Source: an uncultured Bacilli bacterium (GTDB taxonomy: Bacteria > Bacillota_I > Bacilli_A > RF39 > UBA660). Taken from it: 64,000 nt of DNA. The translations under genes were made by a program, and so were the position numbers. Positions within the stretch are counted from its first letter, which is position 1; every line of letters begins with the position of its first letter. Shown in pieces: positions 4,600 to 62,535 of this stretch. The notes under the pieces were generated by a model that saw only the letters and a list, made by a program, of their open reading frames with translations, made no database searches and was not told where the DNA came from. The stretch is from positions 4,098 through 68,097 of the forward strand of contig CANRDL010000004.1 of assembly GCA_947629405.1 (NCBI GenBank). The letters run 5' to 3'.

Positions 4600-5808
4600 A
4601 TGAATAAAAAAGGATTTGTCGCTTCATCAATTTTATATTCTTTTTTGATAGTGTTTGTTGCTTTAATTATGACAATTATAGCAAATTATGCTTATAATCG
4701 CGTATTGATGAATAGAATATCTGATGATATAAAAAAAGAAGTGGAAACTACTAATGATAATGATATTTCCGGAGCTATTGCTCCCGAAATAGGGGCTAGA
4801 TTTACTCCAATTACCTATGTTGATAATCACTGGATTGTAGCAAATTCTAATAATAAAAATGCTACTTGGTATAATTATCGAGATAAGAAATGGGCTAATG
4901 CTGTTTTAACTAGTGAACTTGATAAAAATATAACTGAAGGTTCAGTAATTTCTGATGAAACAGTTGAAAACTATGGATATGTATGGATTCCTAGATTTAG
5001 ATATCAAATATTTTCTAGTGTAGATGGCAATTGTATTCCTCATAATGATGAAGGTCAAGAACTAACATCTATTCCGAATATAAATGTTATTTTTGAACCC
5101 GAAGAAGGGGCATCAGGGTCACAAGGAGAAGCAATTAATACATATCGAGTTCCAAGTGCCTTTACTTATTATAAAACAGATAATGGTGTAAAAAGTCCAG
5201 TTTTTACTAAGGGATTTTGGATTAAAAAATACCCAGAATATAAATCAGCTTCTGAATATAAATTATTTGATTTTTCAAGCGACCAAGAAATTATTTTCTA
5301 TGCTGGTATTCTATTGCAAAGAAGTAACCATATAATTAGGAACTCTCAATGGGGTGCTGTAGCTTATTTAGCATATAGTAAATATGGATTAGGAACTGAT
5401 ACTGCCGATTCAACTACAGGAAATGAAACTGGAGTATATTATATGAATCATTTTAATAATATAGAAAATCCTAATTATTCAAGAAAAACTGGTGAACTAA
5501 CTGTATATACAAAAACTAGTGATTCGAGTTTTTATGATAAAAGTATATTTCCCATTGATAAAATGCCATTAAATTGGAACCTTGGAGATAATAGTGGTGA
5601 TGCTATGTGTGAAACAAATATAAAATATATATCTTGGAATTTTACTGCTGAGGAAGATGCTACATCAACAATTGATAACTATTTTTTTATTAGAGGATAT
5701 AATTCTAGCAATGATTATAATAATGGTATATTTACTTTTCAAAATATAACACCAAATGATATTAGTGATTATTATGTAAGAGATGTTTATGAAAATATTT
5801 TAAATTAA
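4600..5808 (+). CDS. Large prepilin-like protein (N-terminal KKG|F hydrophobic pilin-type helix, no Glu5) with about 360-aa C-terminal domain
   Basis: 402 aa. N-terminus is MNKKGFVASSILYSFLIVFVALIMTII. AGGAG RBS. First gene of a three-gene pilin-like operon. An extended -10 (TGCTATAAT, 4567-4575) lies upstream. Confidence 0.6.
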   Translation: MNKKGFVASSILYSFLIVFVALIMTIIANYAYNRVLMNRISDDIKKEVETTNDNDISGAIAPEIGARFTPITYVDNHWIVANSNNKNATWYNYRDKKWANAVLTSELDKNITEGSVISDETVENYGYVWIPRFRYQIFSSVDGNCIPHNDEGQELTSIPNINVIFEPEEGASGSQGEAINTYRVPSAFTYYKTDNGVKSPVFTKGFWIKKYPEYKSASEYKLFDFSSDQEIIFYAGILLQRSNHIIRNSQWGAVAYLAYSKYGLGTDTADSTTGNETGVYYMNHFNNIENPNYSRKTGELTVYTKTSDSSFYDKSIFPIDKMPLNWNLGDNSGDAMCETNIKYISWNFTAEEDATSTIDNYFFIRGYNSSNDYNNGIFTFQNITPNDISDYYVRDVYENILN

Positions 5809-5818
5809 GGAGGTAATT

Positions 5819-7309
5819 ATGCAAAATAAAAGAGGCTTTGTTTTCGTGGAAACAATTGTCGTTATTTCTGTTGTATCAATTGCTTTAATTTCTTTATTTA
5901 CATTATTTTATAGTGTATATAATGAAGAACAAAAAAGGTTAAGTTTTGATAATGTAGAAGATTTATATGCTACTTATTTTGTAAAAAAATATTTAGAAGA
6001 AAATAACATAAATAGATGTTTTATTAATTATAATAGTGATGATTTATTTAAAGAAATTAATATGGATTTAAATAATACAGTCACATATACTATTGAGTTA
6101 AGACTTGATGGTCACTCTGGACCATTAACATTTGGGCCTAATAGTTTTTCAGATGGCTCAATTAAAACTGTTTCAATTGCTTATAATATGAATGCTCCAG
6201 TTTTAACATATACTGAGACAGGTAAAGATATTCAAATTTGTTCTTTAGGTACTTGTATTGATGGTAGTGATTCTGTAATGCTGCAATCTTCTTTTCAAAG
6301 GATAAAAAATGGAAACCATTATGATTATATTCAACCATTAACTTTTACCATAACTGTTTCTTCATCAGATAAATGTACTATTCTTCATGACAATGATAAA
6401 ACTAATGGTGAATCTTTTAATACAATGAAAGATAAATTTAATATAAAAAATTTATATCTTGTTACAGGAGATATAACTAATTTAAAATTAAATAAAGCAA
6501 AAAACTTATTAAGTGCTAATGTAATTGATTATATTAAAACCATGTCTAAAAATAGTTCTGGATATTATTTAGTTTCCGAATTTGAAAATAATAATGTAGC
6601 AAGTGTCAAACTAACAACAGATATTAGTAATACAACCGCATTCTCCATACTTTCTGCTAATGATAGTTTAATGAATGCTACTAATACTAATAATGACGGA
6701 ATAACATATGTTCATGGGAATAATCAAAATAATTATGTAAATTTTGCTAATAAATCTTGGCGAATATTAAGAATTAATGAAGATGGTAGTATAAGATTAA
6801 TTTTAGATAAAAAATTAAAACCAATAAAATATGATAAAATTGATGATGAATTAAATACTTTTTATAATAAGTTATCTTCATATAGTGACTATATAGTTTT
6901 ATCAAATTATTGTGAAGATAATTGTAATGATAATAAATGTAATAATATTACCACTAACAATTTTTCATTTGCATGTGATAATTTAGCTTATTATGGTCAA
7001 GCTTCATGGAATGAGATTATGTCTACTTCAAGTAGTTTAGGAAATATTAAAGGACAATCCAGATATCAAAGTTTTCTTTCAGACTTTAATGATAATTTTT
7101 GGATTGGAGCAAAATCAAATAAAGTACCATATTATGTTACACCAAGTTCTGATAACTCAGCTGGTATAAATTATTCTTATATTTATGGTCCCAATATTCC
7201 TATTAATAGTACAACTGCTTATATAAGACCGGTAATAAGTATTAAAGGTAGTGTGGTATTAACTGGTAATGGAAGTAGTAAAAATCCATATCAAATTAAA
7301 AAGGAATAA
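5819..7309 (+). CDS. Large type IV prepilin-type protein (class III signal G|FVFVE) with about 460-aa C-terminal domain
   Basis: 496 aa. MQNKRG|FVFVETIVVISVV is the canonical prepilin cleavage/methylation motif with Glu at +5. AAGGAGG RBS. Contains a Cys-rich segment (YCEDNCNDNKCNN...FACDN). Confidence 0.7.
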   Translation: MQNKRGFVFVETIVVISVVSIALISLFTLFYSVYNEEQKRLSFDNVEDLYATYFVKKYLEENNINRCFINYNSDDLFKEINMDLNNTVTYTIELRLDGHSGPLTFGPNSFSDGSIKTVSIAYNMNAPVLTYTETGKDIQICSLGTCIDGSDSVMLQSSFQRIKNGNHYDYIQPLTFTITVSSSDKCTILHDNDKTNGESFNTMKDKFNIKNLYLVTGDITNLKLNKAKNLLSANVIDYIKTMSKNSSGYYLVSEFENNNVASVKLTTDISNTTAFSILSANDSLMNATNTNNDGITYVHGNNQNNYVNFANKSWRILRINEDGSIRLILDKKLKPIKYDKIDDELNTFYNKLSSYSDYIVLSNYCEDNCNDNKCNNITTNNFSFACDNLAYYGQASWNEIMSTSSSLGNIKGQSRYQSFLSDFNDNFWIGAKSNKVPYYVTPSSDNSAGINYSYIYGPNIPINSTTAYIRPVISIKGSVVLTGNGSSKNPYQIKKE

Positions 7310-7323
7310 TTAGGAGGTTAATA

Positions 7324-7788
7324 ATGAAATTAGGGAAAAAAGGACTAACTCTTATTGAATTAATAGTAACTATAACATTAATATCATTACTTCTTTTATT
7401 CTTATTTAAAATATTAAATACTGTTAATGGAGAAGATAAGTTAGATGACAAAGATATAGAATTAATTTCCATAAAATCAAGTGTTACCAAAAACTTAGAA
7501 AAAATATTTATTGACAAAGAAATTGTATATCAGGAGGATGCCGAGAAATATTATACAGTTGATACAGTTGATAAAAATAAAATTACTATTTATTATGAAA
7601 CTACTGCTAGTGATAACAATAAAGAAACATATACTTTACCAAAGGGGTATTATTTTGGCTCAGTTACAAAATTTAGTGAGAATTATGTTTATTCTATTGA
7701 AATTCCAATTATACATGGTAAAGGAAGTAAAGAAGAAACATTAGATGATCGATATACCATTAAATTATATTATTATGGAAAAAGTTAA
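7324..7788 (+). CDS. Type IV prepilin-type / ComGC-like pseudopilin
   Basis: 154 aa. MKLGKKG|LTLIELIVTITLISLL is the canonical G|xTLIE prepilin motif. TAGGAGG RBS. Confidence 0.75.
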   Translation: MKLGKKGLTLIELIVTITLISLLLLFLFKILNTVNGEDKLDDKDIELISIKSSVTKNLEKIFIDKEIVYQEDAEKYYTVDTVDKNKITIYYETTASDNNKETYTLPKGYYFGSVTKFSENYVYSIEIPIIHGKGSKEETLDDRYTIKLYYYGKS

Positions 7789-24099: not shown

Positions 24100-25245
24100 A
24101 TGAATGTACAAATAAAAAAAGATGATAATATTTTATTATCGCCAATTACAAAAAATAAATTAGATGTCGATTATGTATATTTTCCTTATCAAAAAGATAT
24201 TAAATTAAAAGTTAAATTAGATGAATATATATTTTTGGAACAAAATATTTTTGATAATAAAGATATTCCCGTATATTCTTCAATAAGCGGAGTGGTAAAA
24301 GGCAGTAAAAAATTAATTGATGCTAATAATAAAATAATTAATACTATTGTTATTGAAAATGATTTTAAAGAAAAAAAATTAAATAAAAAAGGCATCAAAA
24401 GGAATATTAGTAATTATACCAAAGAAGAAGTATATGCTAAAATTAAAACTTGTCTTGATTATAAATTTGCTAAAAATTTAGAATGTTCTAATTTATTTAT
24501 ATCTTCTTTAGATATTGATCCTTATGAAGCAAATGAATTATTTATATTAAATGATTATGTTGATCAAATTTTGGAAACTGTCGATGCTTTATTAGATATT
24601 TATGAAATACAAAATGCTTATATTTTAGTTAAAAATAAGGAAAGTGAAACAATTACCAAAATACTTAATAAACTTGGTACATATCCTAAAATTCATCTTA
24701 AAATTATTGAAGATTTTTATCCTTTAGGAATTGAAAGGGTGTTAGAAAATTATTTAAAAATTAAAAATATATGTATCTTAAAAACTTCATTTATTTACAA
24801 TTTATATAAAGCTTTAAAAAAAGATAATAAAGTAACGGAAAAATATATAACAATTTCGGGTGATGCTATTAAAAATCCTATTATTGTCAATGTAAAAATA
24901 GGTACGAAAGCTATTGATATAATAAATGATTTAGTAAAATTTAAAAAAGATATAAAAGATTATGTTTATATTGCTAATGGTTTAATGGCTGGAAAAATTA
25001 TTGACATTAACAAATTAGTTGTAACAGATGATTTACGAAGTATAATAATTAATCAAATAGAAGAACGGGAATCATTAGAATGTATTAATTGTGGAATTTG
25101 TAAGCAAGTTTGTCCTATGAACTTAGATCCGAGAGAATATTTACATAAAAAAGTAGTGCCTAATTGTTTAAAATGTAATTTATGTTCTTATATATGTCCC
25201 GCTAAAATAAATCTAATAAAGGAAGATGATTATAGTGATAAATAA
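24100..25245 (+). CDS. RnfC-like protein (RnfC_N barrel plus two 4Fe-4S motifs; NADH/FMN glycine motif not evident)
   Basis: 381 aa. PVYSSISGVVKG (RnfC N-domain), CINCGICKQVCP and CLKCNLCSYICP ferredoxin motifs. I cannot find the GxGGAGFP-type motif of bona fide RnfC. Confidence 0.55.
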   Translation: MNVQIKKDDNILLSPITKNKLDVDYVYFPYQKDIKLKVKLDEYIFLEQNIFDNKDIPVYSSISGVVKGSKKLIDANNKIINTIVIENDFKEKKLNKKGIKRNISNYTKEEVYAKIKTCLDYKFAKNLECSNLFISSLDIDPYEANELFILNDYVDQILETVDALLDIYEIQNAYILVKNKESETITKILNKLGTYPKIHLKIIEDFYPLGIERVLENYLKIKNICILKTSFIYNLYKALKKDNKVTEKYITISGDAIKNPIIVNVKIGTKAIDIINDLVKFKKDIKDYVYIANGLMAGKIIDINKLVVTDDLRSIIINQIEERESLECINCGICKQVCPMNLDPREYLHKKVVPNCLKCNLCSYICPAKINLIKEDDYSDK

Positions 25246-26140
25246 AGCCCCATTTATTCATAGTAAAAATTCACTTAAAAAATATATATTTACAATTTTT
25301 ATTTCTTTATTATTTCCGATAGCATTTGGTTTTTATAAAAATGGAATAAAGTTAGTTTCGAAAGATTTAATTAGTAATATTGAAGTTATTAAACCTCTTT
25401 TATTTCCCATTTTAGGTTTTTTTACATGTTGTTTAAGTGAATTTTTATATACTAAAATAAAAAAGAAAAATTTTAAAATCTTTAATTCTCTTTTTTCAGT
25501 TTCGGGATTAATAATCGGCTGTCTTATGCCACCGCAAACTAATATTTTTTTATTTGTTATCTTACTTTTAATTCTTAGTTTTTTAGTTCAATTTATTCAT
25601 TTTAATATTAATAAATGTGCTTTAATGTCTTTAATATTAATATTGATTATAACTTACTTTTTCAAAGTTGATTTTTATAATTTATATGAATCTGCTAATA
25701 CCTTTGCACCTACAACTGGTAAATTATTTTTAGGCTTTGATAAAGGTGGAATTAATGCTACTTCTTGTTTATTTTTAATTTTTTCATATATATTTTTAAG
25801 TACGCAAAGTTTATATAAAAAAGACACTAGTTTTTATTTTATATTAACTATGTTTATTCTTTGTTCTATTTCTTTTTTCTTTAATCATAGTATATATAAA
25901 TCATATTTGCCAATTCTATCTTTTAATACATTATTTTCTGGTATTTATATTCTTACGGATATCAAATCTTGTCCTACTAATAAAATAGCTAAAGTAATAT
26001 ATGGTATTGTCGCTGCTTTATTATCATTCATTTTAATTAAATTAACAGGATTTTTTTCAAGTGTTATACTTGTTATTACTATTTTATCCATTTTCAATCT
26101 ATTTATAGATAAAATATTTAAAAAAAATAGTCATATTTAA
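25226..26140 (+). CDS. RnfD/NqrB-family-like polytopic membrane protein
   Basis: 304 aa, 8 or more TM. N-terminal APFIHSKNS resembles the RnfD sPH motif; GGINATSCLFLI resembles the GsiGEtS region. The GTG at 25235 is an alternative start. Confidence 0.5.
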   Translation: MIIVINKAPFIHSKNSLKKYIFTIFISLLFPIAFGFYKNGIKLVSKDLISNIEVIKPLLFPILGFFTCCLSEFLYTKIKKKNFKIFNSLFSVSGLIIGCLMPPQTNIFLFVILLLILSFLVQFIHFNINKCALMSLILILIITYFFKVDFYNLYESANTFAPTTGKLFLGFDKGGINATSCLFLIFSYIFLSTQSLYKKDTSFYFILTMFILCSISFFFNHSIYKSYLPILSFNTLFSGIYILTDIKSCPTNKIAKVIYGIVAALLSFILIKLTGFFSSVILVITILSIFNLFIDKIFKKNSHI

Positions 26141-36340: not shown

Positions 36341-37735
36341 ATGAAAGATGTTGTAATTATTGGAGCAGGTCCAGCTGGTTTATTTGCAGCTTATGAACTT
36401 TGTAAAAATAAAAATTTAAAGATTACCTTACTTGATAAAGGAAAAAGAGCTAAAAATAGAGTTTGTCCTATGAAAATAAATGGTGGAAAATGTTTAAATT
36501 GCAACCCTTGTAATATTTTATCAGGCTTTGGGGGAGCTGGTACTTTTAGTGATGGTAAATTAAATTTTATTCCTAAACTTGGTAAAAGTGATTTATTTAA
36601 ATATATGGATAGTGATGAGGCTTTTAAAATAATTGATGAAACTGAAAAAATATTTAATGAATTTAATATGGATAGTGAAATATTTCCTAAAAATTTAGAT
36701 AAAGCATATCAAATTCAAAGGGATATTGCTAAAACTGGAGCAAGACTTCTCCTTATTAAACAAAAACATTTAGGTAGTGATAAATTACCTAATTATATTA
36801 ACAATTTTGAAAATTATTTAGAAAAAAAAGGTGTAGAATTACTTGATGATTGCAATGTTTTAGATATTAAAAGTGAAAGTTGTAAACTACACGAAATAAC
36901 TTATAATAAAAATAATAAAGAATATAAAATAAAAACTAAAAATGTTATTGTTGCTCCTGGTCGAACTGGGGCTAAATGGGTACAAGAACTGGCTGATAAA
37001 TACAATATTGAATATGTCTCTAAATCTATTGAAATAGGGGTAAGAGTAGAAGTTAGAAAAGAAATAATGGAAGATATATGTTCAACTATTTATGATCCTA
37101 CAATTTTTATTAAAACTAAAACATATAATGATGAAATAAGAACATTTTGTACTAATCCTGGTGGTTTTGTTGCTAAAGAAAATTATTATGGTTATATTTG
37201 TGTAAATGGTCATGCCTTAAAGGATATTAAATCAGCTAATTCTAATTTTGCTTTTATTTCCAAAGTAGGTTTAACCGAGCCAGTAACTAATACGAGAGAA
37301 TATGGTGAATCAATTGCGCATATTGCCAATGTTTTAGGAGATTCTAAACCAGTTATTCAAACATTAAGAGATTTAAGATTGGGAAGAAGATCAACTTGGG
37401 ATCACATTAATAAAGGCTTTATTTCTCCAACTTTAAAAGATTGTGTAGCAGGAGATCTTGCTTTAATTTTACCTCATCGAATAATTACTAATATTTTAGA
37501 AGGTTTAGAAGAATTAGACAAAATTATTCCGGGAGTTAATAATGATGAAACTCTATTATATGGTCCAGAAATAAAATTTTTTAGTAATGAAATAACTACT
37601 GATAACAAATTTAAATTGAATAATTATAATATTTATTTTGTCGGTGATGGTGCTGGAAAAGCCGGTAACATTGTAACTTCAGCAGCGACTGGTTTAATTG
37701 CAGCTAAAGATATTTTAAGTAAATTGACAAAATAA
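36341..37735 (+). CDS. FAD-dependent oxidoreductase (COG2509-type uncharacterised FAD-dependent dehydrogenase)
   Basis: Rossmann motif VVIIGAGPAGLFAA at the N-terminus, a Cys cluster (CPMKINGGKCLNCNPC), and C-terminal FVGDGAGKAG. Confidence 0.75.
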   Translation: MKDVVIIGAGPAGLFAAYELCKNKNLKITLLDKGKRAKNRVCPMKINGGKCLNCNPCNILSGFGGAGTFSDGKLNFIPKLGKSDLFKYMDSDEAFKIIDETEKIFNEFNMDSEIFPKNLDKAYQIQRDIAKTGARLLLIKQKHLGSDKLPNYINNFENYLEKKGVELLDDCNVLDIKSESCKLHEITYNKNNKEYKIKTKNVIVAPGRTGAKWVQELADKYNIEYVSKSIEIGVRVEVRKEIMEDICSTIYDPTIFIKTKTYNDEIRTFCTNPGGFVAKENYYGYICVNGHALKDIKSANSNFAFISKVGLTEPVTNTREYGESIAHIANVLGDSKPVIQTLRDLRLGRRSTWDHINKGFISPTLKDCVAGDLALILPHRIITNILEGLEELDKIIPGVNNDETLLYGPEIKFFSNEITTDNKFKLNNYNIYFVGDGAGKAGNIVTSAATGLIAAKDILSKLTK

Positions 37736-37785
37736 AAAAAATAAACTACAATTATTTTAGTATAAGAATAAAGGGGTTATATATT

Positions 37786-38541
37786 ATGGCCAAAGAAGGA
37801 AAAATTGTTTGTGTAACATCAGCTAAAGGAGGGGTAGGTAAAACTATATTTTCTATTAATTTAGCTGGAGTTTTAGAAACATTAAATAAAAAAGTATTAA
37901 TTTTAGATTTAGATTTAGCTGGGGGTGGAATAGCCCTTGCTTTGTCATGCGAATATAAAAAAGATTTATATAATATTTATGAAGATTTAAACAACAATAA
38001 ATTTAGTGACATAAAAAAATATATTACTAAGTATGATAACAAAATTGATTTTATTGCAGCTCCTAAAGATCCGCGTAATGCCAAAAAAATAGATGGTAGG
38101 TATCTAAAATTTATTTTTGATAATTTATCATACTTATATGATGCCATTATTGTTGATACTAATCACTTTTTAACTGATGCAACATTAGTTACTTTAGATC
38201 TTGCTGATAATATATTTTTTATGATGACAAATGATCCATTTGATGTTAAAAATATGAAATCTCTATTAAGTATTTTTAGAGAACTTGATAAAGATAATTA
38301 TAAAATTATTTTAAATGACGCTATTGATCATTGTAAAAATTATTTTTCATTTTATGATCTTCGAAGCATAATAAAAAGTAATATAGATTATACTTTATCT
38401 CCTGCATCATATGTTAAAAACATCGATACCTTAGTTTTAAATGGCAAAATTGTAACTTTAGATAAAGTTTATAAAGCATCTCGCGATTATGGTGTATATT
38501 TGAAAATAGCGACAAATATTTTTGAAAAAGAGGAGGAATAA
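37786..38541 (+). CDS. MinD/ParA-superfamily ATPase, TadZ/CpaE-like (no receiver domain)
   Basis: 251 aa. Deviant Walker A VTSAKGGVGKT and Walker B-like IIVDTN. First gene of the Tad-like cluster. Confidence 0.7.
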   Translation: MAKEGKIVCVTSAKGGVGKTIFSINLAGVLETLNKKVLILDLDLAGGGIALALSCEYKKDLYNIYEDLNNNKFSDIKKYITKYDNKIDFIAAPKDPRNAKKIDGRYLKFIFDNLSYLYDAIIVDTNHFLTDATLVTLDLADNIFFMMTNDPFDVKNMKSLLSIFRELDKDNYKIILNDAIDHCKNYFSFYDLRSIIKSNIDYTLSPASYVKNIDTLVLNGKIVTLDKVYKASRDYGVYLKIATNIFEKEEE

Positions 38542-38544
38542 AAA

Positions 38545-39765
38545 ATGAATAATACTTTAGCTGATGTATTTGAGGTAAAAAATAATAATGATTACAATAA
38601 TGTATCTGATTATGATGCTTTTAAAGATAAGAAATTATTAAATGAAATTCGCGTTAATATTTTAACAAATATTTCTGATATTAATGAGGATTCATTAACA
38701 CAAGATTTAATAAATGGAATTGTTGAAAAAGAGTTAAATAAACATGATTTATCTAATTTAGAAAGAAGCTACGTTTATAATTTAATTGATAATGAGGTAA
38801 ATGGTTGTGGACCGATTACTGAATTATTAAAAGATCCTATTATTTCCGAAATAATGGTTAATAGTCCAAGTGAAATTTATATTGAATCTAATGGGAAAAT
38901 ATTAAAAGATGACAGTGTGTCTTTTATAGATGATAATCATATAATTAGAACGGTTAATAAATTAATTGAAGATACTAATTTAATTTTAGACTTAGAACAT
39001 CCTTTAATTGATACCAGAATTAAAGATGGTTCACATATAAATGCTGTCATTCCCCCAATATCTGTAAAGGGACCAATATTTACAATTAAAAAAGTAAATA
39101 AAAATATTATGAATATAAATGATTTAATTAGATTAGGTACTTTAACTTCCAAAATGGCTAATTTTTTAGAAGAGGCCGTAAAATCTAAATTAAATATCAT
39201 AGTTTGTGGTAATTCAAATAGTGGTAAAAATACATTATTAAATATTTTATGTGGTTTTATTCCTGAAGATGAAAGAATTGTAACAATTGAAGATAATGCT
39301 TTTTTGAGTTTATCTCAAAAAAATGTTGTCGCTTTAGAAGAAAATAATATTAACAAAAAAAATTATAATTCTAATTTAATAACATTAGCTAAAAAATTAA
39401 AACCTAATAGGGTAATAATTGGTGGAATTAATAAAGAAAATACATTTGATATTTTACAATTAATGAATACTGGTTTTTGTACTATGACATCAATGCATGC
39501 TGGAAGTGTTAAAGATGTCTTATCAATAATTTCTACTAATGTTTTATTAAATGGTATAGATGTACCAAGTAGTGTTATAAAAGAGTATATGTGTTCAGGA
39601 ATTGATTTAATTGTCAATATCGATATTTTAAAAGATGGAAGTAGAAAAGTTACTTCAATAAGCAAAATTATAAAAACAAATGGTGTATTTCAAATTGCTG
39701 AAATTTTTGCATATAAGAAAAATAAAAATGATGAAAATGGCGAATTTGTAAGTTATAAATTATAA
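38545..39765 (+). CDS. CpaF/TadA-family secretion ATPase homologue with substituted catalytic motifs
   Basis: 406 aa, collinear with CpaF. Walker A is GNSNSGKN (Asn where T/S is expected). The Walker B region is PNRVIIGGINK versus canonical PDRIIVGEVRG. The His box is NTGF versus NTGH. The Asp-box is TIEDNAFL versus TIEDxAEL. Confidence 0.7.
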   Translation: MNNTLADVFEVKNNNDYNNVSDYDAFKDKKLLNEIRVNILTNISDINEDSLTQDLINGIVEKELNKHDLSNLERSYVYNLIDNEVNGCGPITELLKDPIISEIMVNSPSEIYIESNGKILKDDSVSFIDDNHIIRTVNKLIEDTNLILDLEHPLIDTRIKDGSHINAVIPPISVKGPIFTIKKVNKNIMNINDLIRLGTLTSKMANFLEEAVKSKLNIIVCGNSNSGKNTLLNILCGFIPEDERIVTIEDNAFLSLSQKNVVALEENNINKKNYNSNLITLAKKLKPNRVIIGGINKENTFDILQLMNTGFCTMTSMHAGSVKDVLSIISTNVLLNGIDVPSSVIKEYMCSGIDLIVNIDILKDGSRKVTSISKIIKTNGVFQIAEIFAYKKNKNDENGEFVSYKL

Positions 39766-39795
39766 AATAAGTTAATAAAAAGAAAGGAGAAATCT

Positions 39796-40791
39796 ATGAA
39801 TTTAAAAATATTAATAGTATTATTTATTGCTTTAATAATGATTATCTATTTATTAAAAAATTGGATAGATGTAAAAAAAATTAATAAATATGAAAATAGA
39901 TTTTCTCTTTTTTCTTATGGATTAAATCAGGATGAAAATTTAAAATATTATGAAAGACTTAAATATTATTTTATTAAACATTTAAAAATTATCTCTGTTG
40001 TTTTAGAAAAATTTAAATTTTTTAGAAAATATTCAAATAAATATAAGAAATTTGAAAATTCTAAAAGTGACATGAAAAAAATAGATTATGTTTCTTTAAA
40101 ATTTTTTATTACTTTGGTATTTTTATTTTTGGTAATTATATTTAATATTTTTAAAATACTACCTTATTCATTAATTTTAAGTTTATTTATTATAATATTT
40201 GGCTTTTATTTTTTAGATATTATTCTCTTACTTAAATATCATAAAATTAAAATAGATTTAGAAAGTGATTTATATAAAGCCATCCAAATTATAAATACTA
40301 ATTTAAAAACCAAGAGTATAACTACTTCAATTTTGGAAGTGACTAAAAAATTAGATGGCCCAATAAAAAATGAATTTAAAATAATATATAAGGAATTGAA
40401 AAGGGGCATTTCAGTTGATGAAGCTTTTAAAAAATTTTACAAGAAATATAAAATTAAAATGGTTAAAAACATTTATTTACTTATTATAATGACTGATGAT
40501 AATAATTCCAATTACCAAGAATTATTTTCGAATCTAGAACTTCGTTTAAAAGAACAAGAAAAATTTGTTGATAGTATGTCTCTTTCCAAAGTTACGACCT
40601 TAATCTTATTTTTATTTTTTTCTATATTACCAATTTTGATGATAATAATAATATTGAATATAAAGAAAACTTACTTTGATGCTTTTTTTAATACTTATGC
40701 CGGAATAATTAGTTTAATAGTATTGCTTGCAATATATATTGTATATATAAGAGAAATGATAAAATTGATTGGTGATGATGATTATGAGTAG
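39796..40791 (+). CDS. TadB-like type II secretion system F-domain membrane protein
   Basis: 331 aa. N-terminal TM, a central TM pair, a T2SSF-like helical domain (LYKAIQIINTNLKTKSITTSILEV...ELKRGISVDEAFKKF), and C-terminal TMs. Confidence 0.6.
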   Translation: MNLKILIVLFIALIMIIYLLKNWIDVKKINKYENRFSLFSYGLNQDENLKYYERLKYYFIKHLKIISVVLEKFKFFRKYSNKYKKFENSKSDMKKIDYVSLKFFITLVFLFLVIIFNIFKILPYSLILSLFIIIFGFYFLDIILLLKYHKIKIDLESDLYKAIQIINTNLKTKSITTSILEVTKKLDGPIKNEFKIIYKELKRGISVDEAFKKFYKKYKIKMVKNIYLLIIMTDDNNSNYQELFSNLELRLKEQEKFVDSMSLSKVTTLILFLFFSILPILMIIIILNIKKTYFDAFFNTYAGIISLIVLLAIYIVYIREMIKLIGDDDYE

Positions 40792-41236
40792 AAAAAAATT
40801 AACTAGTTTAGAATATCAAGGTTATTATTTTACTGAAGCGTTATTAGTGAATTTACAAACTAATAATTTAATTAATTCTCTTTATTATGTTTGTAATCAT
40901 ATTGATTGTAAATTATCTAAAGAAATTTATAAAGCTTTAAAAGGCCTTGAAAATGGTATGAATTTTAAAGAAAGTTTCACTAATTTAAAAAATAAATTTC
41001 AATCAAAATATATCATAAATTTAATTAATTTATTAATTAAAAATAAACAAAAAGAAAAAACATTATATAAAGAATTAAGCGAATTTTGCACTAAATATTC
41101 TAAAGATATAATAATAAATGAAAAGAATAAAAGTAATGATTTACCTCTAAAAATTGCTATATTTTCTATGTTATTTATTGTTCCAATAATAATTTTAATA
41201 ATAAGTTTACCTATAATTATTGAAAAGTTTTTTTAA
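40784..41236 (+). CDS. TadC-like T2SSF-domain membrane protein (short)
   Basis: About 150 aa. Helical domain (ALKGLENGMNFKESFTNL) and a C-terminal TM. Overlaps the upstream gene by 8 nt. Confidence 0.5.
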   Translation: MSRKKLTSLEYQGYYFTEALLVNLQTNNLINSLYYVCNHIDCKLSKEIYKALKGLENGMNFKESFTNLKNKFQSKYIINLINLLIKNKQKEKTLYKELSEFCTKYSKDIIINEKNKSNDLPLKIAIFSMLFIVPIIILIISLPIIIEKFF

Positions 41237-41271
41237 AATATGTTACAATAGTTATAGAAAGGTCTAATATT

Positions 41272-41826
41272 ATGAAGAAAAACAAAAACAAAAATAAAAA
41301 TAAATTAAATCAAAAAATATTTATTTTGATAATTATACTTATATTTGTAATTGTTGGGTCAATTACATTAACATATGGTTTTTATGCATCTAAATTTGAT
41401 ACTAAAATAAGTCCTGTTAATATTAGTTCAACCGTTAAAAATTTTTCATTAGATTATTCTGAAGGAACTCCAACAATAAATGAACCTGATATTTTACCGG
41501 GATGGTCTGCTAAAAAAACTGTTACTATTACTAATTCAAATAGTTCATCAGCAACTTACAGTTTAGTATTTAAAAAACTTTCAAATGGCTTTACAAATGG
41601 AGACTTAGTATATTCTGGAACTTGTAAATCTGGGGGAGCTACTGTTAAAACAATTTCTGAAACTGCTGTACCAGCAAGTGGTACTGATTTGAAAATTGCT
41701 GAAAGTATAGCTATAGATGGAAGTGCCACTCATACATGCGATATAACTTTTAAATTTAAAGAAACTAATAGTGATCAAAGTACTAATAAAGGTAAAACAT
41801 TTACTGCTACATTAGGAATTGCCTAA
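41272..41826 (+). CDS. Secreted/anchored beta-rich protein with TasA/camelysin-like (SipW-type) N-terminal signal motif; candidate fibre subunit
   Basis: 184 aa. KN-repeat N-terminus and an h-region ending GSITLTYGFYASKFDT (compare the TasA-class GGTFAYFSD). S/T/N-rich body with PGWSAKKTVTITNSN, like TasA's PGDK...ENNGS strand. Terminal gene of the Tad-like operon. Confidence 0.4.
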   Translation: MKKNKNKNKNKLNQKIFILIIILIFVIVGSITLTYGFYASKFDTKISPVNISSTVKNFSLDYSEGTPTINEPDILPGWSAKKTVTITNSNSSSATYSLVFKKLSNGFTNGDLVYSGTCKSGGATVKTISETAVPASGTDLKIAESIAIDGSATHTCDITFKFKETNSDQSTNKGKTFTATLGIA

Positions 41827-41832
41827 AAATAA

Positions 41833-41864
41833 AAAATACAAATTTAAATATTTGTATTTTTTTT
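41833..41864 (+). terminator. Rho-independent terminator of the Tad-like operon
   Basis: AAAATACAAAT-ttaaat-ATTTGTATTTT followed by a T-run. Confidence 0.65.
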
Positions 41865-42751: not shown

Positions 42752-43391
42752 AGTTTATTATGTAGGTAGTAGTAATATGTTACCACCACCTCTAAGTAAA
42801 GAGGAAGAATTAGAATATTTAAAAAAATCTTTTAATGGAGATAATAAAGCAAAAGACAAACTTATTGAACACAATTTGCGATTAGTTGTTTTTCTCGCTA
42901 AAAAATATGAAAATACTGGCTATGATATAGAAGATTTAGTAAGTATTGGTTCAATTGGTTTAATAAAGGGAATAAACACTTATAAAATAGATAAAAACAT
43001 TAAATTAGCCACTTATGCATCCCGTTGTATTTCTAATGAAATATTAATGTTTTTAAGAAAAAACAAAAACAAAAAATCAGAAATAAGTTTTGAGGATGCC
43101 CTAAATTATGATGCTGAGGGAAATGAATTGCATCTTGAAGATATTTTAGGAACTGATTGTGATATTGTTATTAAAGAATTTGAAGAGAAGATGAACAAAG
43201 ATGAATTAGAAAAAGAAATTAATTCTTTAAATAAAAGAGAAAAACAAATCATGATATTAAGATATGGTCTTAATAACACTAAAGAATATACACAGAAAGA
43301 AGTGGCTGAAATGCTCGGTATCAGTCAATCTTATATATCAAGAATTGAGAAAAAAGTTATTCGAAGATTAAAATGTACTATGAATAGTTAG
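42696..43391 (+). CDS. sigE: Sporulation sigma factor SigE (pro-sigma-E)
   Basis: 231 aa. Pro-sequence plus VYYVGSSNMLPPPLSKEEE (B. subtilis has VYYIGGSEALPPPLSKDEE). Regions 2 and 4 are present. GGAAGGAGAAG RBS. Confidence 0.92.
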   Translation: MILKRIKNYLFLRKLRKNKVYYVGSSNMLPPPLSKEEELEYLKKSFNGDNKAKDKLIEHNLRLVVFLAKKYENTGYDIEDLVSIGSIGLIKGINTYKIDKNIKLATYASRCISNEILMFLRKNKNKKSEISFEDALNYDAEGNELHLEDILGTDCDIVIKEFEEKMNKDELEKEINSLNKREKQIMILRYGLNNTKEYTQKEVAEMLGISQSYISRIEKKVIRRLKCTMNS

Positions 43392-43570
43392 TTTTAATCT
43401 TTTTTTATTATAGTAGTTACATCATTTTTCTATTTGATATAAATTTTTCTTTTTTATATCACTCCTAGTTTATAATATGTTTACTAATGTAAACTAAGTA
43501 GTTCAATTGTTTATTTACTTGTTAAAATAGCTAATTAATGGTACAATAACCTTGTATTTGAGGTGATTAT

Positions 43571-43819
43571 ATGGATAAAACAACACTTTTTGATGTTTCA
43601 ATAATTAAAAACGAATTAGTTGCTAAAACTTTAAATGAAGTTTTTGAAGCATTAAGTGAAAGAGGTTATAATCCTGTCAATCAATTAGTAGGATATCTAA
43701 TAAGTGGAGATCCTGGTTATATTTCTTCTTATAAAAATGCTCGTAATAAAATAATTGATTTAGATCGTACAGAGATTATCCAAATTTTATTAGAGTTTTA
43801 TTTAGAAAATAAGAAATGA
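43571..43819 (+). CDS. IreB/UPF0297 family protein (YrzL)
   Basis: 82 aa. GYNPVNQLVGYLISGDPGYISS is the family signature. yrzL-yrrK-yrzB synteny. Confidence 0.85.
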   Translation: MDKTTLFDVSIIKNELVAKTLNEVFEALSERGYNPVNQLVGYLISGDPGYISSYKNARNKIIDLDRTEIIQILLEFYLENKK

Positions 43820-44238
43820 GATATTTAGGTCTAGATTTAGGGACAAAAACAATGGGGGTAGCAATATCAGATAAATCTAATACTATTTCGACATCGTTAA
43901 AAACAATAAATTATCAAAATTATGATGAGTTAATTTTAGAAATAGAAAAGATTGTTAAAAAATATGATATTACTACTTTTGTTTTAGGTTATCCTAAAAA
44001 TATGAATAACACTGTTGGAATAAGAGCCGAAGAAACAAATAAATTTAAAAATAGATTAGAAAATTATTTTTCTTTGCCAGTTGTTTTAATGGATGAAAGA
44101 CTATCAACAGTTGAAGCAGAAAATGTTTTGATAAGTGCTGATTTATCTAGAAAAAAAAGAAAAAAAGTAATTGATAGTATGGCCGCTTCAATTATTTTAG
44201 ATACATATCTTAGGAGGATTAAAAATGGAAGAAAGTAA
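43816..44238 (+). CDS. ruvX: Putative pre-16S rRNA nuclease / Holliday junction resolvase-like RuvX (YqgF/YrrK)
   Basis: 140 aa. MRYLGLDLGTKTMGVAISD, plus DERLSTVEA and a C-terminal AASIILDTYL. Confidence 0.9.
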   Translation: MRYLGLDLGTKTMGVAISDKSNTISTSLKTINYQNYDELILEIEKIVKKYDITTFVLGYPKNMNNTVGIRAEETNKFKNRLENYFSLPVVLMDERLSTVEAENVLISADLSRKKRKKVIDSMAASIILDTYLRRIKNGRK

Positions 44239-48741: not shown

Positions 48742-49980
48742 ATGGCTAAGAAAAATATGAAAGTGGACTTGGAAAGGTACATGAGTCCCGAAGAAAAGAT
48801 TAAAAGATCTTTTATCTTTTCTTGTACAATTTTAGTAATTTTAACATTTTTAATTTTTATAACATACTCTTTTTTTATAAATAATACAGGTGAAAAAGAT
48901 GTAGGAAATGTGCAAGCGACAAATTCCAGTTCTGATGTGGTATTTTATGAAGCTGGAGATTCAGAATACATAATAAAAAATAATTCTAACACTAATGCAT
49001 ATTCTTATAATTTAAGTTATAAAGAAAGTGAAAGTTGTAGTAATGATATATATTATAAAATACCAAGTGATGGATACTCACATGCCAAAGGAATAATAAA
49101 ACCAGGTGAAGAAAAAAGAGTATATATAATAAACAAATCAAATTGTGATATAAATTCTCAAAATTTAAAAATAAATTCCGGATATGAATATAGTCCAGTT
49201 AAAGTAAGTACTGGGTATCAGGAAATAAAATATTTAAATACATCAAATTTAGAACATGAGACAGAATTAGAATATTTATGGGTTGATAATGGATGGTTAG
49301 AGCCTGAATTTAATAAATATACATTAGAATATAATTTATGCATTTATGAAGATATTATTGGTGATACAGCTGATTCAATTACCGAGATAAACTTTGAAGG
49401 AAGTTTACTTAATAATGGATATATTACAGGAGAAAAAGCAATATTAACAGATGATGATATAATAAAACATAAAATAAAAGTGTATGCCGAAGATGGTACT
49501 TATATCCAAACTTATACTATAAATATAATAAGAAAAGATACTTATCGAGGAAAAATTAAGATGTTTAAGTTGGAAGATCTATGTCATACTGATGAACACG
49601 GAAATCCTTTAGTAATATCAAAAGCATATAAGGAAAATGGCTTTGAAAATAATGATGAAATAAATTTTCATATAGATGACCTTAACAATTATATTTGTCA
49701 AGATAATCATTATTATACTTATATAAATTGGCAATTATCTTATAATTATTTAACTAGTAGTAAATCCATTGGAAATTATATTTTTCGACTACATCTTGCA
49801 AATAATAATGCTCCATTAATTATAACTGATGCATATGATGGTTATGTAAATATTAATTTTACTTCTAATAATGGGGATTTTTTACAACATTTTTCAGTTG
49901 CTTATATGGATGTAGTAGATTATAAACTTTCTGATGCTGAGGAACATATTGATTATACTTATGGCATAAATATTTCTTAA
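48742..49980 (+). CDS. Membrane-anchored extracellular protein with a cadherin-like beta-sandwich segment
   Basis: 412 aa. N-terminal TM (CTILVILTFLIFITYSFFI). The central LEYLWVDNGWLEPEFNKYTLEYNL...IKVYAEDGTYIQTYTINIIRKD fits the cadherin-like beta-sandwich pattern. Confidence 0.5.
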   Translation: MAKKNMKVDLERYMSPEEKIKRSFIFSCTILVILTFLIFITYSFFINNTGEKDVGNVQATNSSSDVVFYEAGDSEYIIKNNSNTNAYSYNLSYKESESCSNDIYYKIPSDGYSHAKGIIKPGEEKRVYIINKSNCDINSQNLKINSGYEYSPVKVSTGYQEIKYLNTSNLEHETELEYLWVDNGWLEPEFNKYTLEYNLCIYEDIIGDTADSITEINFEGSLLNNGYITGEKAILTDDDIIKHKIKVYAEDGTYIQTYTINIIRKDTYRGKIKMFKLEDLCHTDEHGNPLVISKAYKENGFENNDEINFHIDDLNNYICQDNHYYTYINWQLSYNYLTSSKSIGNYIFRLHLANNNAPLIITDAYDGYVNINFTSNNGDFLQHFSVAYMDVVDYKLSDAEEHIDYTYGINIS

Positions 49981-61785: not shown

Positions 61786-62535
61786 ATGAAAAGGAGATTA
61801 AATTTATTTCGAATTGTTTTATTATGTTTTATATTTATTTCTTCTTCCGTAAATGCTGTTTATTTATATCAAAATCAATTGGATAAATACAAAACTAAAA
61901 CATTAGAAACTGCATATCAAATTGAAAATTCTAAAAATCAAGAAAAAATTGAAAAACAAGTTGATGTAACAGTATATCAAAACGCTGTTGATAGCCTGCG
62001 AAGTGAATTTAATAATACAGAAGTTATTGGTTCTTTAAAAATTAATGGAACTGGCATAGATACAACATTAGTTCAATCAACTGACAATTCATTTTATTTA
62101 GATCACTCAGTAAACAAAGAAGAGAATCGTTTAGGTTCAGTTTTTATGGATTATCGAAATAAAATAGATGATAAAGTTAAAATATTTTATGGACATAATT
62201 CTCGTACATTAAAACCAGTATTTCATGAGCTAGAAAATTTTTTAAATGAATCATTTGTAAATGAACATTCATACATTCAAATATTAGATGAAACTGGATT
62301 ATATAATTATAAAATATTTTCAGTAATGGTTATTCCTAATAATACAACTACTCATATGCAAATAGATTTCAGTAATAATAATGAATATGAAAATCATTTA
62401 AAATGGCTTAAGGATAGTTCAAAATTTGTATTAGATGTAGATGTATCACCTAAAGATGATATAGTTATTTTGCAAACATGTTACTATGAACCTGCTAATT
62501 CTTTTATCTTAGTTGTAGCTAAAAAAATAAAATAG
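61786..62535 (+). CDS. Class B sortase-like protein (conserved Arg not found)
   Basis: 249 aa. Signal/TM, sortase B-type N-terminal helix region, His motif FYGHNSR and Cys motif VILQTCYYE. No Arg anywhere after the Cys (C-terminus YYEPANSFILVVAKKIK). Confidence 0.7.
   Translation: MKRRLNLFRIVLLCFIFISSSVNAVYLYQNQLDKYKTKTLETAYQIENSKNQEKIEKQVDVTVYQNAVDSLRSEFNNTEVIGSLKINGTGIDTTLVQSTDNSFYLDHSVNKEENRLGSVFMDYRNKIDDKVKIFYGHNSRTLKPVFHELENFLNESFVNEHSYIQILDETGLYNYKIFSVMVIPNNTTTHMQIDFSNNNEYENHLKWLKDSSKFVLDVDVSPKDDIVILQTCYYEPANSFILVVAKKIK

What the first reader, a model, noticed from the sequence alone, without database searches (positions are those of the whole stretch)
37786..41826. Tad-like module with a TasA/camelysin-like protein in place of a Flp pilin, directly upstream of spoIIGA-sigE
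The operon encodes a TadZ/CpaE-like MinD ATPase, a CpaF/TadA homologue, TadB-like and short TadC-like T2SSF proteins, and a terminal 184-aa protein. The terminal protein is not a Flp pilin: it has no G/xxxxEY motif and is far too long. It has a KN-repeat basic head and a hydrophobic core ending GSITLTYGFYASKFDT. That resembles the SipW-dependent signal class of TasA/CalY (GGTFAYFSD). Its S/T/N-rich body looks beta-stranded. No prepilin peptidase (TadV), TadE/F pseudopilin, secretin or SipW gene is present in the window. Coupling a Tad platform to a TasA-type subunit is not a combination I know to be described in bacteria. TasA-like subunits form donor-strand-exchanged fibres in Bacillus biofilms and in archaeal bundling pili. 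The position next to the mother-cell sigma factor operon raises the possibility of a sporulation-linked surface structure.
Basis: partly seen in the sequence, partly recalled or inferred. Interest (0 to 1): 0.75.

Follow-up and report, generated by a model that had tools for sequence, protein, structure and literature searches.

The report
TasA-like surface protein behind crippled Tad operon
An uncultured low-GC gut Firmicute carries a distant relative of the biofilm-fibre protein TasA at the end of a Tad pilus operon that has lost its pilin genes and its motor's catalytic residues; the pairing recurs in related bacteria and is interesting, but it is unproven as one machine and is not tied to sporulation.

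Summary
There is no Flp, TadE/F, prepilin peptidase or SipW gene in the window.

The 184-aa protein matches no family on its own. It is the shortest form of a large family (1253 clusters). That family links to TasA/camelysin/BsaA through its signal motif and first two strands only (Pfam PF12389, TIGR04090, hhalign 86% to TasA). AlphaFold gives a confident 10-strand beta-sandwich. Foldseek finds only generic jelly-rolls, not TasA.

New findings:
- Relatives (ATPase about 45% identical) have flp-tadE-tadF-tadZ-cpaF-tadB-tadC. This lineage lost the three pilin genes, all CpaF catalytic motifs and the N-terminal helices of TadC.
- tadZ and cpaF remain under purifying selection.
- TasA-like genes flank 7 of 21 related Tad operons. 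In contrast, 8 of 9 family members sampled from the other side stand alone.
- The spoIIGA adjacency is not conserved, and a terminator plus separate promoters divide the units.

Verdict: this is a TasA-superfamily surface protein co-located with a non-motor Tad remnant. A functional link is plausible but unproven. The sporulation link is unsupported. It is a new variant of known kinds.

The parts
37724..37752 (+). Sigma-70-type promoter-like site (TTGACA-17-TACAAT) in front of the operon
   Evidence: Best match in the region, 11 of 12. The -35 hexamer and the RBS AAAGGGG are conserved in L005, although the -35 overlaps the end of the upstream ORF. Function is inferred.
37786..38541 (+). TadZ/CpaE-like MinD/ParA-family ATPase (251 aa), deviant Walker A KGGVGKT intact
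   Evidence: Pfam AAA_31 3.5e-16, ParA, CbiA; NCBIfam MinD/CpaE-type hits below cut-off. dN/dS is 0.05 vs L001 and 0.17 vs L005. It is fused to the ATPase in L005/P0178.
38545..39765 (+). CpaF/TadA-family protein (406 aa) with degenerate catalytic motifs; predicted pseudo-ATPase
   Evidence: T2SSE 2e-33; best PDB hit is CpaF 9e24, 1.4e-57. Motifs are GNSNSGKNT, EDNAFL, NRVIIGGINK and TGF, against GKT[TS], EDAAEL, DRIIVGEVRG and TGHxGS in about 45 relatives. 117 of the 120 best database homologues keep all three motifs; only this protein and the L005 one have lost all three. dN/dS is 0.03 and 0.22.
39796..40791 (+). TadB-like T2SSF platform protein (331 aa)
   Evidence: PF00482 1e-5, 25.9 bits against a cut-off of 25.2. 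It is co-linear and of the same length as TadB in 40+ related operons. dN/dS is 0.19 and 0.50.
40769..41236 (+). TadC-like T2SSF protein, N-terminally truncated (155 aa against 204-237 aa in relatives)
   Evidence: PF00482 1e-5. The alignment shows about 75 N-terminal residues, including the membrane helices, missing in the window and L001 but present in L005, L006, L036 and L041.
41220..41249 (+). Promoter-like site with extended -10 (TTGAAA-18-TGtTACAAT) immediately before the TasA-like gene
   Evidence: 10 of 12, TG present. TATGTTAnAATA in the non-coding spacer and the GAAAGG RBS are conserved in L005, although the adjoining TadC is only 41% identical. Function is inferred.
41272..41826 (+). 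184-aa TasA/camelysin-superfamily-like exported protein: K/N-rich head, hydrophobic helix (residues about 16-34), TYG-FYAS motif, disordered linker, 10-strand beta-sandwich
   Evidence: Family of 1253 clusters. Family-level hits to PF12389, TIGR04090, TasA NF046066 and TIGR04088. TasA is the top PDB hit of the family profile, E 0.0017. hhalign to TasA gives 86.4%. AF2 pLDDT is 80.5 and 81.5, with the sandwich above 90.
41581..41661 (+). Hypervariable, probably recombined segment of the TasA-like gene (codons 104-130; a beta-hairpin and loop in the model)
   Evidence: Against L001, pS is 0.49 and pN 0.29 here, compared with pS 0.03-0.05 in the rest of the gene. The four known alleles differ mainly here. 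Whole-gene dN/dS is 0.61, against 0.03-0.19 for the neighbours.
41831..41862 (+). AT-rich hairpin running into a T tract; probable intrinsic terminator closing the unit before spoIIGA
   Evidence: 13-bp stem, -9.6 kcal/mol, z = -3.24, and none of 200 shuffles folds as well. Sequence shown. An analogous hairpin plus T-run follows the L005 orthologue.

Best explanation
The terminal gene encodes the minimal form of a very large N-terminal module family. The module is a basic head, a roughly 20-residue hydrophobic helix, a G-x-[ST]-Y-A-[YW]-F motif and a compact beta-sandwich. It is a distant branch of the TasA/camelysin/BsaA superfamily.

I infer that the protein is exported by Sec. It is then either kept as a signal-anchored surface protein or cut at the TYG/FYAS motif by a SipW-type peptidase encoded elsewhere. 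It would sit on the cell surface as a monomer or a short donor-strand oligomer. One hairpin is swapped between alleles, which suggests exposure to hosts or phages.

The gene has its own promoter-like site and terminator. It lies at the 3' end of a reduced Tad operon. That operon descends from flp-tadE-tadF-tadZ-cpaF-tadB-tadC. In this lineage it has lost the three pilin genes, every catalytic motif of CpaF and the N-terminal helices of TadC, so it cannot be a conventional ATP-driven pilus motor. TadZ and CpaF are still under purifying selection. I therefore infer that they persist as a non-motor membrane scaffold co-expressed with the surface protein, and possibly positioning or aiding its release.

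Shown: gene content, homologies, motif loss, selection, synteny and enrichment. Inferred: export route, surface location, scaffold role.

The proximity to spoIIGA-sigE is incidental.
For: TasA link:
- 22 of 33 family members hit PF12389, best 2e-10. Three members pass its gathering score, matching profile positions 8-90.
- BsaA TIGR04090 is hit by 14 of 33 members, and TasA NF046066 by 9 of 33.
- TasA is the top PDB hit of the family profile.
- hhalign to TasA gives 86% probability, E 5e-6, and places TYAYF on TWAAF.

Fold: confident beta-sandwich, with a disordered residue stretch of about 37-54 in front of it.

Own expression signals.

Degenerate Tad module.

Ancestral operon form: 40+ loci.

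Selection: cpaF dN/dS 0.03 and 0.22; tadZ 0.05 and 0.17.

Recurrent adjacency: 7 of 21 lineages. Fisher p = 0.004 for HMM hits adjacent to the operon versus elsewhere in the flanks.

Stand-alone relatives.

Precedent for pilus genes helping release of a TasA-like matrix protein: PMC11580942.
Against: - The window protein itself matches no TasA, camelysin or SipW-signal model.
- Homology covers only the signal and the first two strands.
- Foldseek does not return TasA.
- No SipW gene was seen, in the window or next to any family member examined.
- Loss of catalysis is predicted from motifs, not measured.
- The scaffold role is pure inference.
- The degenerate clade consists of only two species.
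Confidence: 0.5

Rival explanations
1. One reading: the Tad-derived platform (TadZ, CpaF, TadB, TadC) actively exports or assembles the TasA-like protein into a fibre. This would be a hybrid filament system in which a donor-strand subunit has replaced Flp.
For: - The five-gene order is conserved between two species, although the terminal protein is only 41-46% identical.
- No flp, tadE or tadF lies at the locus.
- TasA-like genes are enriched next to related Tad operons. One locus, L039, has four tandem copies where flp normally sits, next to a CpaF with intact motifs.
- cpaF and tadZ are under purifying selection.
- In C. perfringens, type IV pilus genes affect BsaA/BsaC release (PMC11580942).
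- In TANB77, a Tad-like machine is followed by 143-237-aa one-helix proteins of unknown fold that the authors call pilin-like (PMC11680825).
Against: - CpaF lacks Walker A Thr, Walker B Asp, the catalytic Glu and a His-box His, so no energy source is apparent.
- TadC is truncated.
- The protein has no class III (prepilin) signal. Its conserved motif lies after the hydrophobic segment, not before it.
- Eight of nine family members sampled elsewhere have no Tad neighbour, including ones 38-40% identical.
- Related operons with a TasA-like neighbour mostly keep flp/tadE/tadF, so the protein is an addition and not a replacement.
Confidence: 0.2
2. Coincidence and decay. The Tad-like genes are a relic on the way to loss, and an abundant, mobile surface-protein gene merely landed next to them. 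There is no functional connection.
For: - Pilin genes, catalytic motifs and TadC helices have been lost.
- tadB and tadC have dN/dS of 0.50 and 0.64 against L005.
- The ATPase sits on a long branch: 71% identity, then nothing above 50% among 5.8 billion proteins.
- The TasA-like gene has its own promoter-like site and terminator.
- The family is large, occurs in many contexts and is often in tandem.
Against: - All four ORFs are intact in every copy seen, in two species and several samples.
- Against L001, cpaF shows 9 synonymous changes and 1 non-synonymous change.
- Adjacency recurs in 7 of 21 lineages. Non-adjacent flank genes gave no independent hits among about 190.
Confidence: 0.2
3. A sporulation-linked surface or spore appendage system, placed next to spoIIGA-sigE for mother-cell timing.
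For: The organism is a spore-former: spoIIGA, sigE, spoIIP and a SpoIVB-like gene are in the window. The operon abuts spoIIGA in the window and in L001. In L026/L028 the gene after a related Tad operon looked like spoIVA on reading its N-terminus; no family scan was run.
Against: - In L005 the same five-gene unit is followed by pflB.
- Most related operons are followed by yebC, ruvA or surface proteins.
- A terminator hairpin and a separate TTGACA element lie between the TasA-like gene and spoIIGA.
- The promoter-like sites for the operon and for the terminal gene are sigma-70 type.
Confidence: 0.04

Closest known systems
TasA / CalY (camelysin, Pfam PF12389) with SipW, Bacillus biofilm fibres
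   Same: The N-terminal architecture is the same: basic head, hydrophobic segment, aromatic-Ala-aromatic motif (TYAYF against TWAAF), then 'TL.L...N[IL].PG...K.F...N.G'. This is supported by profile hits and hhalign. The body is beta-rich, and there is a disordered stretch where TasA has its donor strand.
   Different: Only about 80 residues align. The body is half the size (about 135 aa against 234 aa) and is not retrieved by Foldseek. No sipW or tapA neighbour is present. The hydrophobic segment is longer, so the protein may stay anchored. The family often carries long C-terminal adhesin-type domains (LRR_5, DUF285, GDSL).
BsaA/BsaB of Clostridium perfringens (TIGR04090) and its type IV pilus-associated secretion (PMC11580942)
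   Same: It is a remote TasA homologue. TIGR04090 is hit by 14 of 33 family members. The paper reports reduced release of BsaA oligomers in some pilus-gene mutants and membrane-anchored oligomers. That is the nearest precedent for a pilus-machine and TasA-like partnership.
   Different: There the pilus genes are type IVa, lie elsewhere in the genome and have working ATPases, and the bsa operon carries sipW. The authors call the result 'not definitive'. Their neighbourhood survey lists LPxTG, sortase and signal peptidase genes, not Tad genes.
Tad/Flp (type IVc) pilus systems: Caulobacter CpaF/CpaE, and the Gram-positive tad operons represented by the related loci found here
   Same: TadZ-CpaF-TadB-TadC are in the canonical order. 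CpaF is the best solved homologue. The operon is clearly derived from the flp-tadE-tadF-tadZ-cpaF-tadB-tadC operons seen in 40+ related loci.
   Different: There is no Flp, TadE/F or TadV. CpaF has lost its catalytic motifs. TadC is truncated. A non-pilin beta-sandwich gene lies at the 3' end.
TANB77 'pilus' cluster (PMC11680825)
   Same: In uncultured gut Firmicutes, a Tad-like machinery block is followed by one-helix proteins of 143-237 aa. These have their own promoters and no recognisable pilin homology.
   Different: The machinery differs: CpaB, two MinD-like proteins, a 640-aa TadA and a fused TadC-TadB. I could not obtain its sequences, so I did not test whether its 'pilin-like' proteins are TasA-like.
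Archaeal bundling pili (AbpA; PMC9245690)
   Same: TasA-superfamily donor-strand filaments outside Bacillus. They show that small TasA-like subunits can form pili. This statement rests on the paper's title and abstract as listed.
   Different: Neither the sequence nor the structure search brought up an archaeal bundling pilin. The comparison remains an analogy.

Membership tests
TasA/camelysin superfamily (Pfam PF12389 Peptidase_M73; NCBIfam TIGR04090 BsaA, NF046066 TasA) | The protein itself matches the family model | tested here: not met
   No PF12389, TIGR04090 or NF046066 hit for the window protein at E <= 0.1, or <= 1.
TasA/camelysin superfamily (Pfam PF12389 Peptidase_M73; NCBIfam TIGR04090 BsaA, NF046066 TasA) | Transitive homology through its own family | tested here: met
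   Homologues found at E 1e-13 to 1e-31 hit PF12389 in 22 of 33 cases. P0060, P0132 and P0154 score 34.8, 26.8 and 39.2 bits against a cut-off of 22.5. The family profile's top PDB hit is TasA, E 0.0017. hhalign gives 86.4%, E 4.7e-6. Coverage is limited to the signal plus about 50 mature residues.
TasA/camelysin superfamily (Pfam PF12389 Peptidase_M73; NCBIfam TIGR04090 BsaA, NF046066 TasA) | SipW-type signal motif (TIGR04088; G-G-T-[FW]-A-x-F) | tested here: inconclusive
   The family consensus is G-x-[ST]-Y-A-[YW]-F. TIGR04088 is hit by only 3 of 33 members. The window variant is TYGFYAS. Cleavage was not tested.
TasA/camelysin superfamily (Pfam PF12389 Peptidase_M73; NCBIfam TIGR04090 BsaA, NF046066 TasA) | TasA-like jelly-roll fold | tested here: inconclusive
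   The AF2 model is a confident 10-strand beta-sandwich. Foldseek against PDB returns only generic jelly-rolls (CBM6/35, birnavirus VP2; TMq 0.3-0.49). TasA 5of1/8aur is not among the 50 rows shown. No direct pairwise superposition was possible.
TasA/camelysin superfamily (Pfam PF12389 Peptidase_M73; NCBIfam TIGR04090 BsaA, NF046066 TasA) | Dedicated SipW (S26B) signal peptidase nearby | tested here: not met
   None in the 64-kb window. None is listed next to the family members in the contexts. The rest of the genome was not available.
TasA/camelysin superfamily (Pfam PF12389 Peptidase_M73; NCBIfam TIGR04090 BsaA, NF046066 TasA) | Polymerisation by donor-strand exchange | not testable with these tools
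   Only monomer prediction is offered. The roughly 18 residues after the putative cleavage site are disordered. That is compatible with donor-strand exchange but not specific to it.
Tad/Flp type IVc pilus system | CpaF/TadA hexameric ATPase with intact Walker A, Asp box, Walker B and His box | tested here: not met
   It is a homologue (CpaF 1.4e-57). The motifs read GKNT, EDNAFL, NRVIIGGINK and TGF. 117 of the 120 closest database proteins keep all three motifs; only this protein and the L005 one lost all three.
Tad/Flp type IVc pilus system | TadZ/CpaE ParA-MinD protein and TadB + TadC platform | tested here: met
   The genes are co-linear with 40+ canonical operons. Caveat: TadC lacks about 75 N-terminal residues.
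Tad/Flp type IVc pilus system | Flp pilin with G/XXXXEY, plus TadE/TadF pseudopilins | tested here: not met
   None in the operon or the window. They are present directly upstream of tadZ in many relatives, for example L006 and L012-L019.
Tad/Flp type IVc pilus system | Prepilin peptidase TadV (A24) | tested here: not met
   Not in the window. The rest of the genome was not available.
Type IV pilin (class III signal peptide), as applied to the 184-aa protein | Short basic leader ending in G/A, cleaved before a hydrophobic helix carrying E5 | tested here: not met
   No Gly precedes the hydrophobic segment and there is no E5. The conserved motif follows the helix. Genuine pilin-like N-termini are seen only at 4600-7788.
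Sporulation (sigma-E/spoIIG-linked) gene set | Conserved linkage to, or co-transcription with, spoIIGA-sigE | tested here: not met
   In L005 pflB follows the orthologous unit. A terminator hairpin and a separate promoter-like element lie between the units.

The most novel reading that the evidence does not exclude
In some uncultured low-GC gut Bacilli, a Tad pilus machine has been converted into an ATPase-dead membrane platform that is dedicated to exporting, positioning or nucleating a TasA-type donor-strand fibre. More broadly, TasA-like signal-anchored proteins would be accessory substrates of Firmicute Tad systems, giving a Gram-positive analogue of type II secretion.
Probability: 0.15. 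Interest if true: 0.8.

Novelty: new variant of a known kind. Interest (0 to 1): 0.5.

Why it matters
If the link is functional, it would join two filament worlds that are normally treated separately: type IV/Tad machines and chaperone-free donor-strand fibres of the TasA type. It would also show that a secretion-ATPase homologue can be kept by selection after losing its catalytic residues.

Independent of that question, the work defines a very large and so far unnamed branch of the TasA superfamily. It has 1253 clusters at 50% identity. It forms the N-terminal module of many surface proteins in uncultured gut Bacilli. That is useful for annotating these genomes and for thinking about their adhesion and antigenic variation.

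Tried and rejected
- A word-indexed homologue search with the single protein gave only 3 near-identical hits. The exhaustive HMMER search was needed.
- I compared the 184-aa protein with the 412-aa window protein that also has a 'TYSFF'-like N-terminus. There was no significant similarity.
- Two AlphaFold models, full-length and mature, were searched against the PDB. Neither retrieved TasA or any specific neighbour. The viral fold library was not used because it is irrelevant here.
- I looked for a missed Flp gene among all ORFs of 20 aa or more in the operon, and by regex over the whole window. None was found.
- I looked for A24 and S26 peptidases by Pfam among the unassigned membrane proteins. 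None was found.
- A sigma-70 promoter scan alone is uninformative in this AT-rich DNA: 78 sites found against 75 expected. Only the two sites conserved in L005 were kept.
- The GC-based terminator scan missed the AT-rich hairpin. It was found by eye and confirmed by folding.
- Literature searches for any described TasA or camelysin plus Tad combination found none. The Bulleidia tad operon paper reports unexplained 3' genes, but these are DUF192 and a coiled-coil protein, not TasA-like.
- The hypervariable segment was first considered to be under positive selection. That was rejected because synonymous divergence is equally inflated there, which points to recombination.

Full report
**1. What is there**

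The window is about 23% G+C and comes from a spore-forming Firmicute. Five co-directional ORFs lie between 37786 and 41826.
- A 251-aa MinD/ParA-type ATPase (AAA_31, 3.5e-16).
- A 406-aa T2SSE protein (2e-33). Its best solved relative is Caulobacter CpaF (1.4e-57).
- A 331-aa T2SSF protein and a 155-aa T2SSF protein, each 1e-5 and only just above Pfam's cut-off.
- A 184-aa protein with no family match.

spoIIGA and sigE follow. No ORF of 20 aa or more in the operon resembles Flp. Reading every ORF, two further Pfam scans and regex scans found no prepilin peptidase, signal peptidase, TadE/F or secretin in the window.

**2. The 184-aa protein**

A word-indexed search found only three alleles, 87-92% identical. 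An exhaustive HMMER search found 1253 cluster representatives at E <= 1e-3 and 265 at E <= 1e-10. In almost every case the match covers the N-terminal 170-180 residues of proteins that range from 128 to 1334 aa.

The family consensus is a basic head, a hydrophobic helix, G-x-[ST]-Y-A-[YW]-F, then 'TGTL.L.Y.DG..I...NI.PGW...KT..V.N.G'.

The window protein on its own hits nothing. The family, however, connects to the TasA/camelysin superfamily.
- 22 of 33 short members hit Pfam Peptidase_M73 (best 2e-10). 14 hit the BsaA model TIGR04090, 9 hit the TasA model and 3 hit the SipW-signal model.
- Three members pass Pfam's gathering score, matching profile positions 8-90 of 196.
- A profile of the family has B. 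subtilis TasA as its top hit in the PDB (E 0.0017).
- hhalign against TasA gives 86% probability and E 5e-6 over 77 columns. It places TYAYF on the TWA|AF SipW site. I wrote the TasA sequence from memory and verified it as identical to 8AUR.

AlphaFold models built from a 24-25-sequence alignment are confident: pLDDT 80.5 and 81.5, with the sandwich above 90. They show an N-terminal helix, a disordered stretch of about 18 residues and a 10-strand beta-sandwich.

Foldseek against the PDB returned only weak generic jelly-rolls with TMq of 0.49 or less. TasA was not among the 50 rows shown for either model.

The TasA relationship is therefore a sequence-profile one, limited to the signal and the first two strands.

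**3. The Tad-like module is a derived, crippled one**

The ATPase has only two close relatives in 5.8 billion proteins: an identical one and a 71%-identical one. The next hits are at 50% or less.

Loci holding relatives show what the ancestral operon looked like. One genome scan and one metagenome scan gave 51 loci. At about 45% ATPase identity the standard order is flp (70-84 aa, KGQALVEYVLI), tadE-like, tadF-like, tadZ, cpaF, tadB, tadC.

The window, its conspecific L001 and the rabbit-gut MAG L005 differ from that form in three ways.
- They lack the three pilin genes.
- Their CpaF reads GKNT, EDNAFL, NRVIIGGINK and TGF where every other relative has GKT[TS], EDAAEL, DRIIVGEVRG and TGHxGS. 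Of the 120 best database homologues, 117 keep all three motifs.
- In the window and L001, TadC also lacks about 75 N-terminal residues, including its membrane helices.

These are not simply pseudogenes. All ORFs are intact in every copy. cpaF has 9 synonymous and 1 non-synonymous differences from L001 (dN/dS 0.03), and dN/dS of 0.22 against L005. tadZ gives 0.05 and 0.17. tadB and tadC are looser, at 0.5-0.64 against L005.

**4. Is the TasA-like gene tied to the Tad genes?**

For a link:
- L005 keeps the same five-gene order with a terminal protein only 41-46% identical.
- I clustered the related operons into 24 lineages at 90% ATPase identity. Of these, 21 have a visible flank. A family member lies immediately next to the operon in 7 of the 21: window, L005, L029, L036, L039, L041 and L052.
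- No independent hits occur among about 190 non-adjacent flank genes. Fisher p = 0.004 on the conservative count.
- In L039, four tandem copies occupy the place where flp usually sits, next to a CpaF with intact motifs.
- Further operons are followed by LRR or DUF285 surface proteins with the same kind of N-terminus.

Against a link:
- I looked up nine family members starting from the protein side. Only the L005 orthologue is next to Tad genes. The others sit among housekeeping genes, including proteins 38-40% identical to the window protein.
- Most Tad operons with a TasA-like neighbour also keep flp/tadE/tadF.
- The protein has no prepilin-type signal.
- The gene has its own promoter-like site with an extended -10, conserved in L005 within otherwise diverged sequence. 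It also has its own terminator hairpin (-9.6 kcal/mol, z -3.2).

**5. Sporulation**

In L005 the unit is followed by pflB, not spoIIGA. Other relatives are followed by yebC, ruvA or surface proteins. A terminator and a separate TTGACA element precede spoIIGA. The two promoter-like sites are sigma-70 type. The sporulation idea is not supported.

**6. Variation**

Between the window and L001 the ATPase is identical in protein, while the TasA-like protein is 88% identical. The differences concentrate in codons 104-130. There both synonymous (0.49) and non-synonymous (0.29) divergence are about ten-fold above the rest of the gene. This indicates an exchanged cassette in an exposed hairpin rather than point-wise positive selection.

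**7. Interpretation**

The best-supported reading (confidence 0.5) is this. The protein is a Sec-exported surface protein of the TasA superfamily, either signal-anchored or processed by a SipW-type peptidase. It is co-located, and probably co-expressed, with a Tad remnant that can no longer act as an ATP-driven pilus motor but is retained, most plausibly as a membrane scaffold.

The rivals are:
- decay with coincidental adjacency (0.2);
- a sporulation appendage (0.04).

**8. Literature**

I found no description of a TasA or camelysin gene inside a Tad operon. There are two partial precedents.
- In C. perfringens, some type IV pilus mutants release less BsaA/BsaC. The authors call this result not definitive (PMC11580942).
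- In TANB77, a Tad-like machine is followed by unexplained one-helix 'pilin-like' proteins (PMC11680825).

I therefore rate this a new variant of known kinds, of moderate interest. The decisive tests are a multimer model, a whole-genome search for sipW, tadV and flp, and an ATPase assay.

Noticed in passing
window 38545-39765 (also L005 2347-3591): The CpaF homologue has lost Walker A Thr, the Asp-box Glu, Walker B Asp, the catalytic Glu and the first His-box His, yet shows dN/dS of 0.03-0.22. It appears to be a conserved pseudo-ATPase of the secretion-ATPase family. In the L005 species it is fused to the TadZ-like protein (668-670 aa, seen on 4 contigs).
   Followed up: yes
window 41581-41661: A mosaic segment in the TasA-like gene. 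Against the conspecific L001, pS is 0.49 and pN 0.29, compared with pS 0.03-0.05 elsewhere in the gene. This suggests cassette-like recombination in an exposed hairpin. The N-terminal K/N repeat also varies in length, in 6-nt units.
   Followed up: partly
window 4600-7788: Three type IV pilin-like genes (402, 496 and 154 aa; KG/F..., RG/FVFVE, KKG/LTLIELIV) lie between lon and a YlbL-like gene. Only the 154-aa one hits N_methyl. Similar pilin-like genes lie 1-2 kb downstream of the Tad operon in L014, L015 and L020. The 496-aa protein shares an 'NYVNF..WRI.RINEDGSIR' motif with the C-terminal parts of TasA-module proteins P0007 (E 4e-5) and P0016. The same cargo domain may therefore ride on either kind of N-terminal module.
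   Followed up: partly
L039 2867-5332: Four tandem TasA-family paralogues (176-192 aa, ...AVAYAAF.T.L.INGT...) lie directly upstream of tadE-tadF-tadZ-cpaF (motifs intact)-tadB-tadC. No flp gene is detectable in the fetched region. This is the clearest case of TasA-like genes in the Flp position.
   Followed up: partly
window 43391-44238: No sigG follows sigE. The next genes are an IreB-family gene, ruvX, a DUF1292 gene and mltG, unlike the usual spoIIGA-sigE-sigG arrangement.
   Followed up: no
window 48742-49980: A 412-aa protein with a hydrophobic N-terminus ending ...ITYSFF and a weak cadherin-like beta-sandwich hit. It is not significantly similar to the 184-aa protein, but it has the same style of N-terminus.
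   Followed up: partly
window 24100-26140: Only rnfC-like and rnfD-like genes are present side by side, followed directly by dnaG. The remaining rnf genes are not adjacent.
   Followed up: no
window 61786-62535: A 249-aa protein that looks like a class B sortase by eye (TLVQSTDNSFYLDHS...FMDYRN...LQTC) but has no Pfam hit at 1e-3.
   Followed up: no
L026 5006-6484 and L028 5379-6857: In this lineage the gene right after the Tad operon looks like spoIVA by its N-terminus (GAVRTGKSTFIKK). This is a second, apparently coincidental, case of a sporulation gene next to a Tad operon. No family scan was run on it.
   Followed up: no
L017 4505-4834, L018 4826-5155, L019 4888-5217 (minus strand): A 109-aa protein that looks like a DUF192 family member by eye sits just upstream of flp in several related Tad loci; no family scan was run on it. 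A DUF192 protein was reported as an unexplained, conserved companion of the Bulleidia tad operon (PMC12786226).
   Followed up: no
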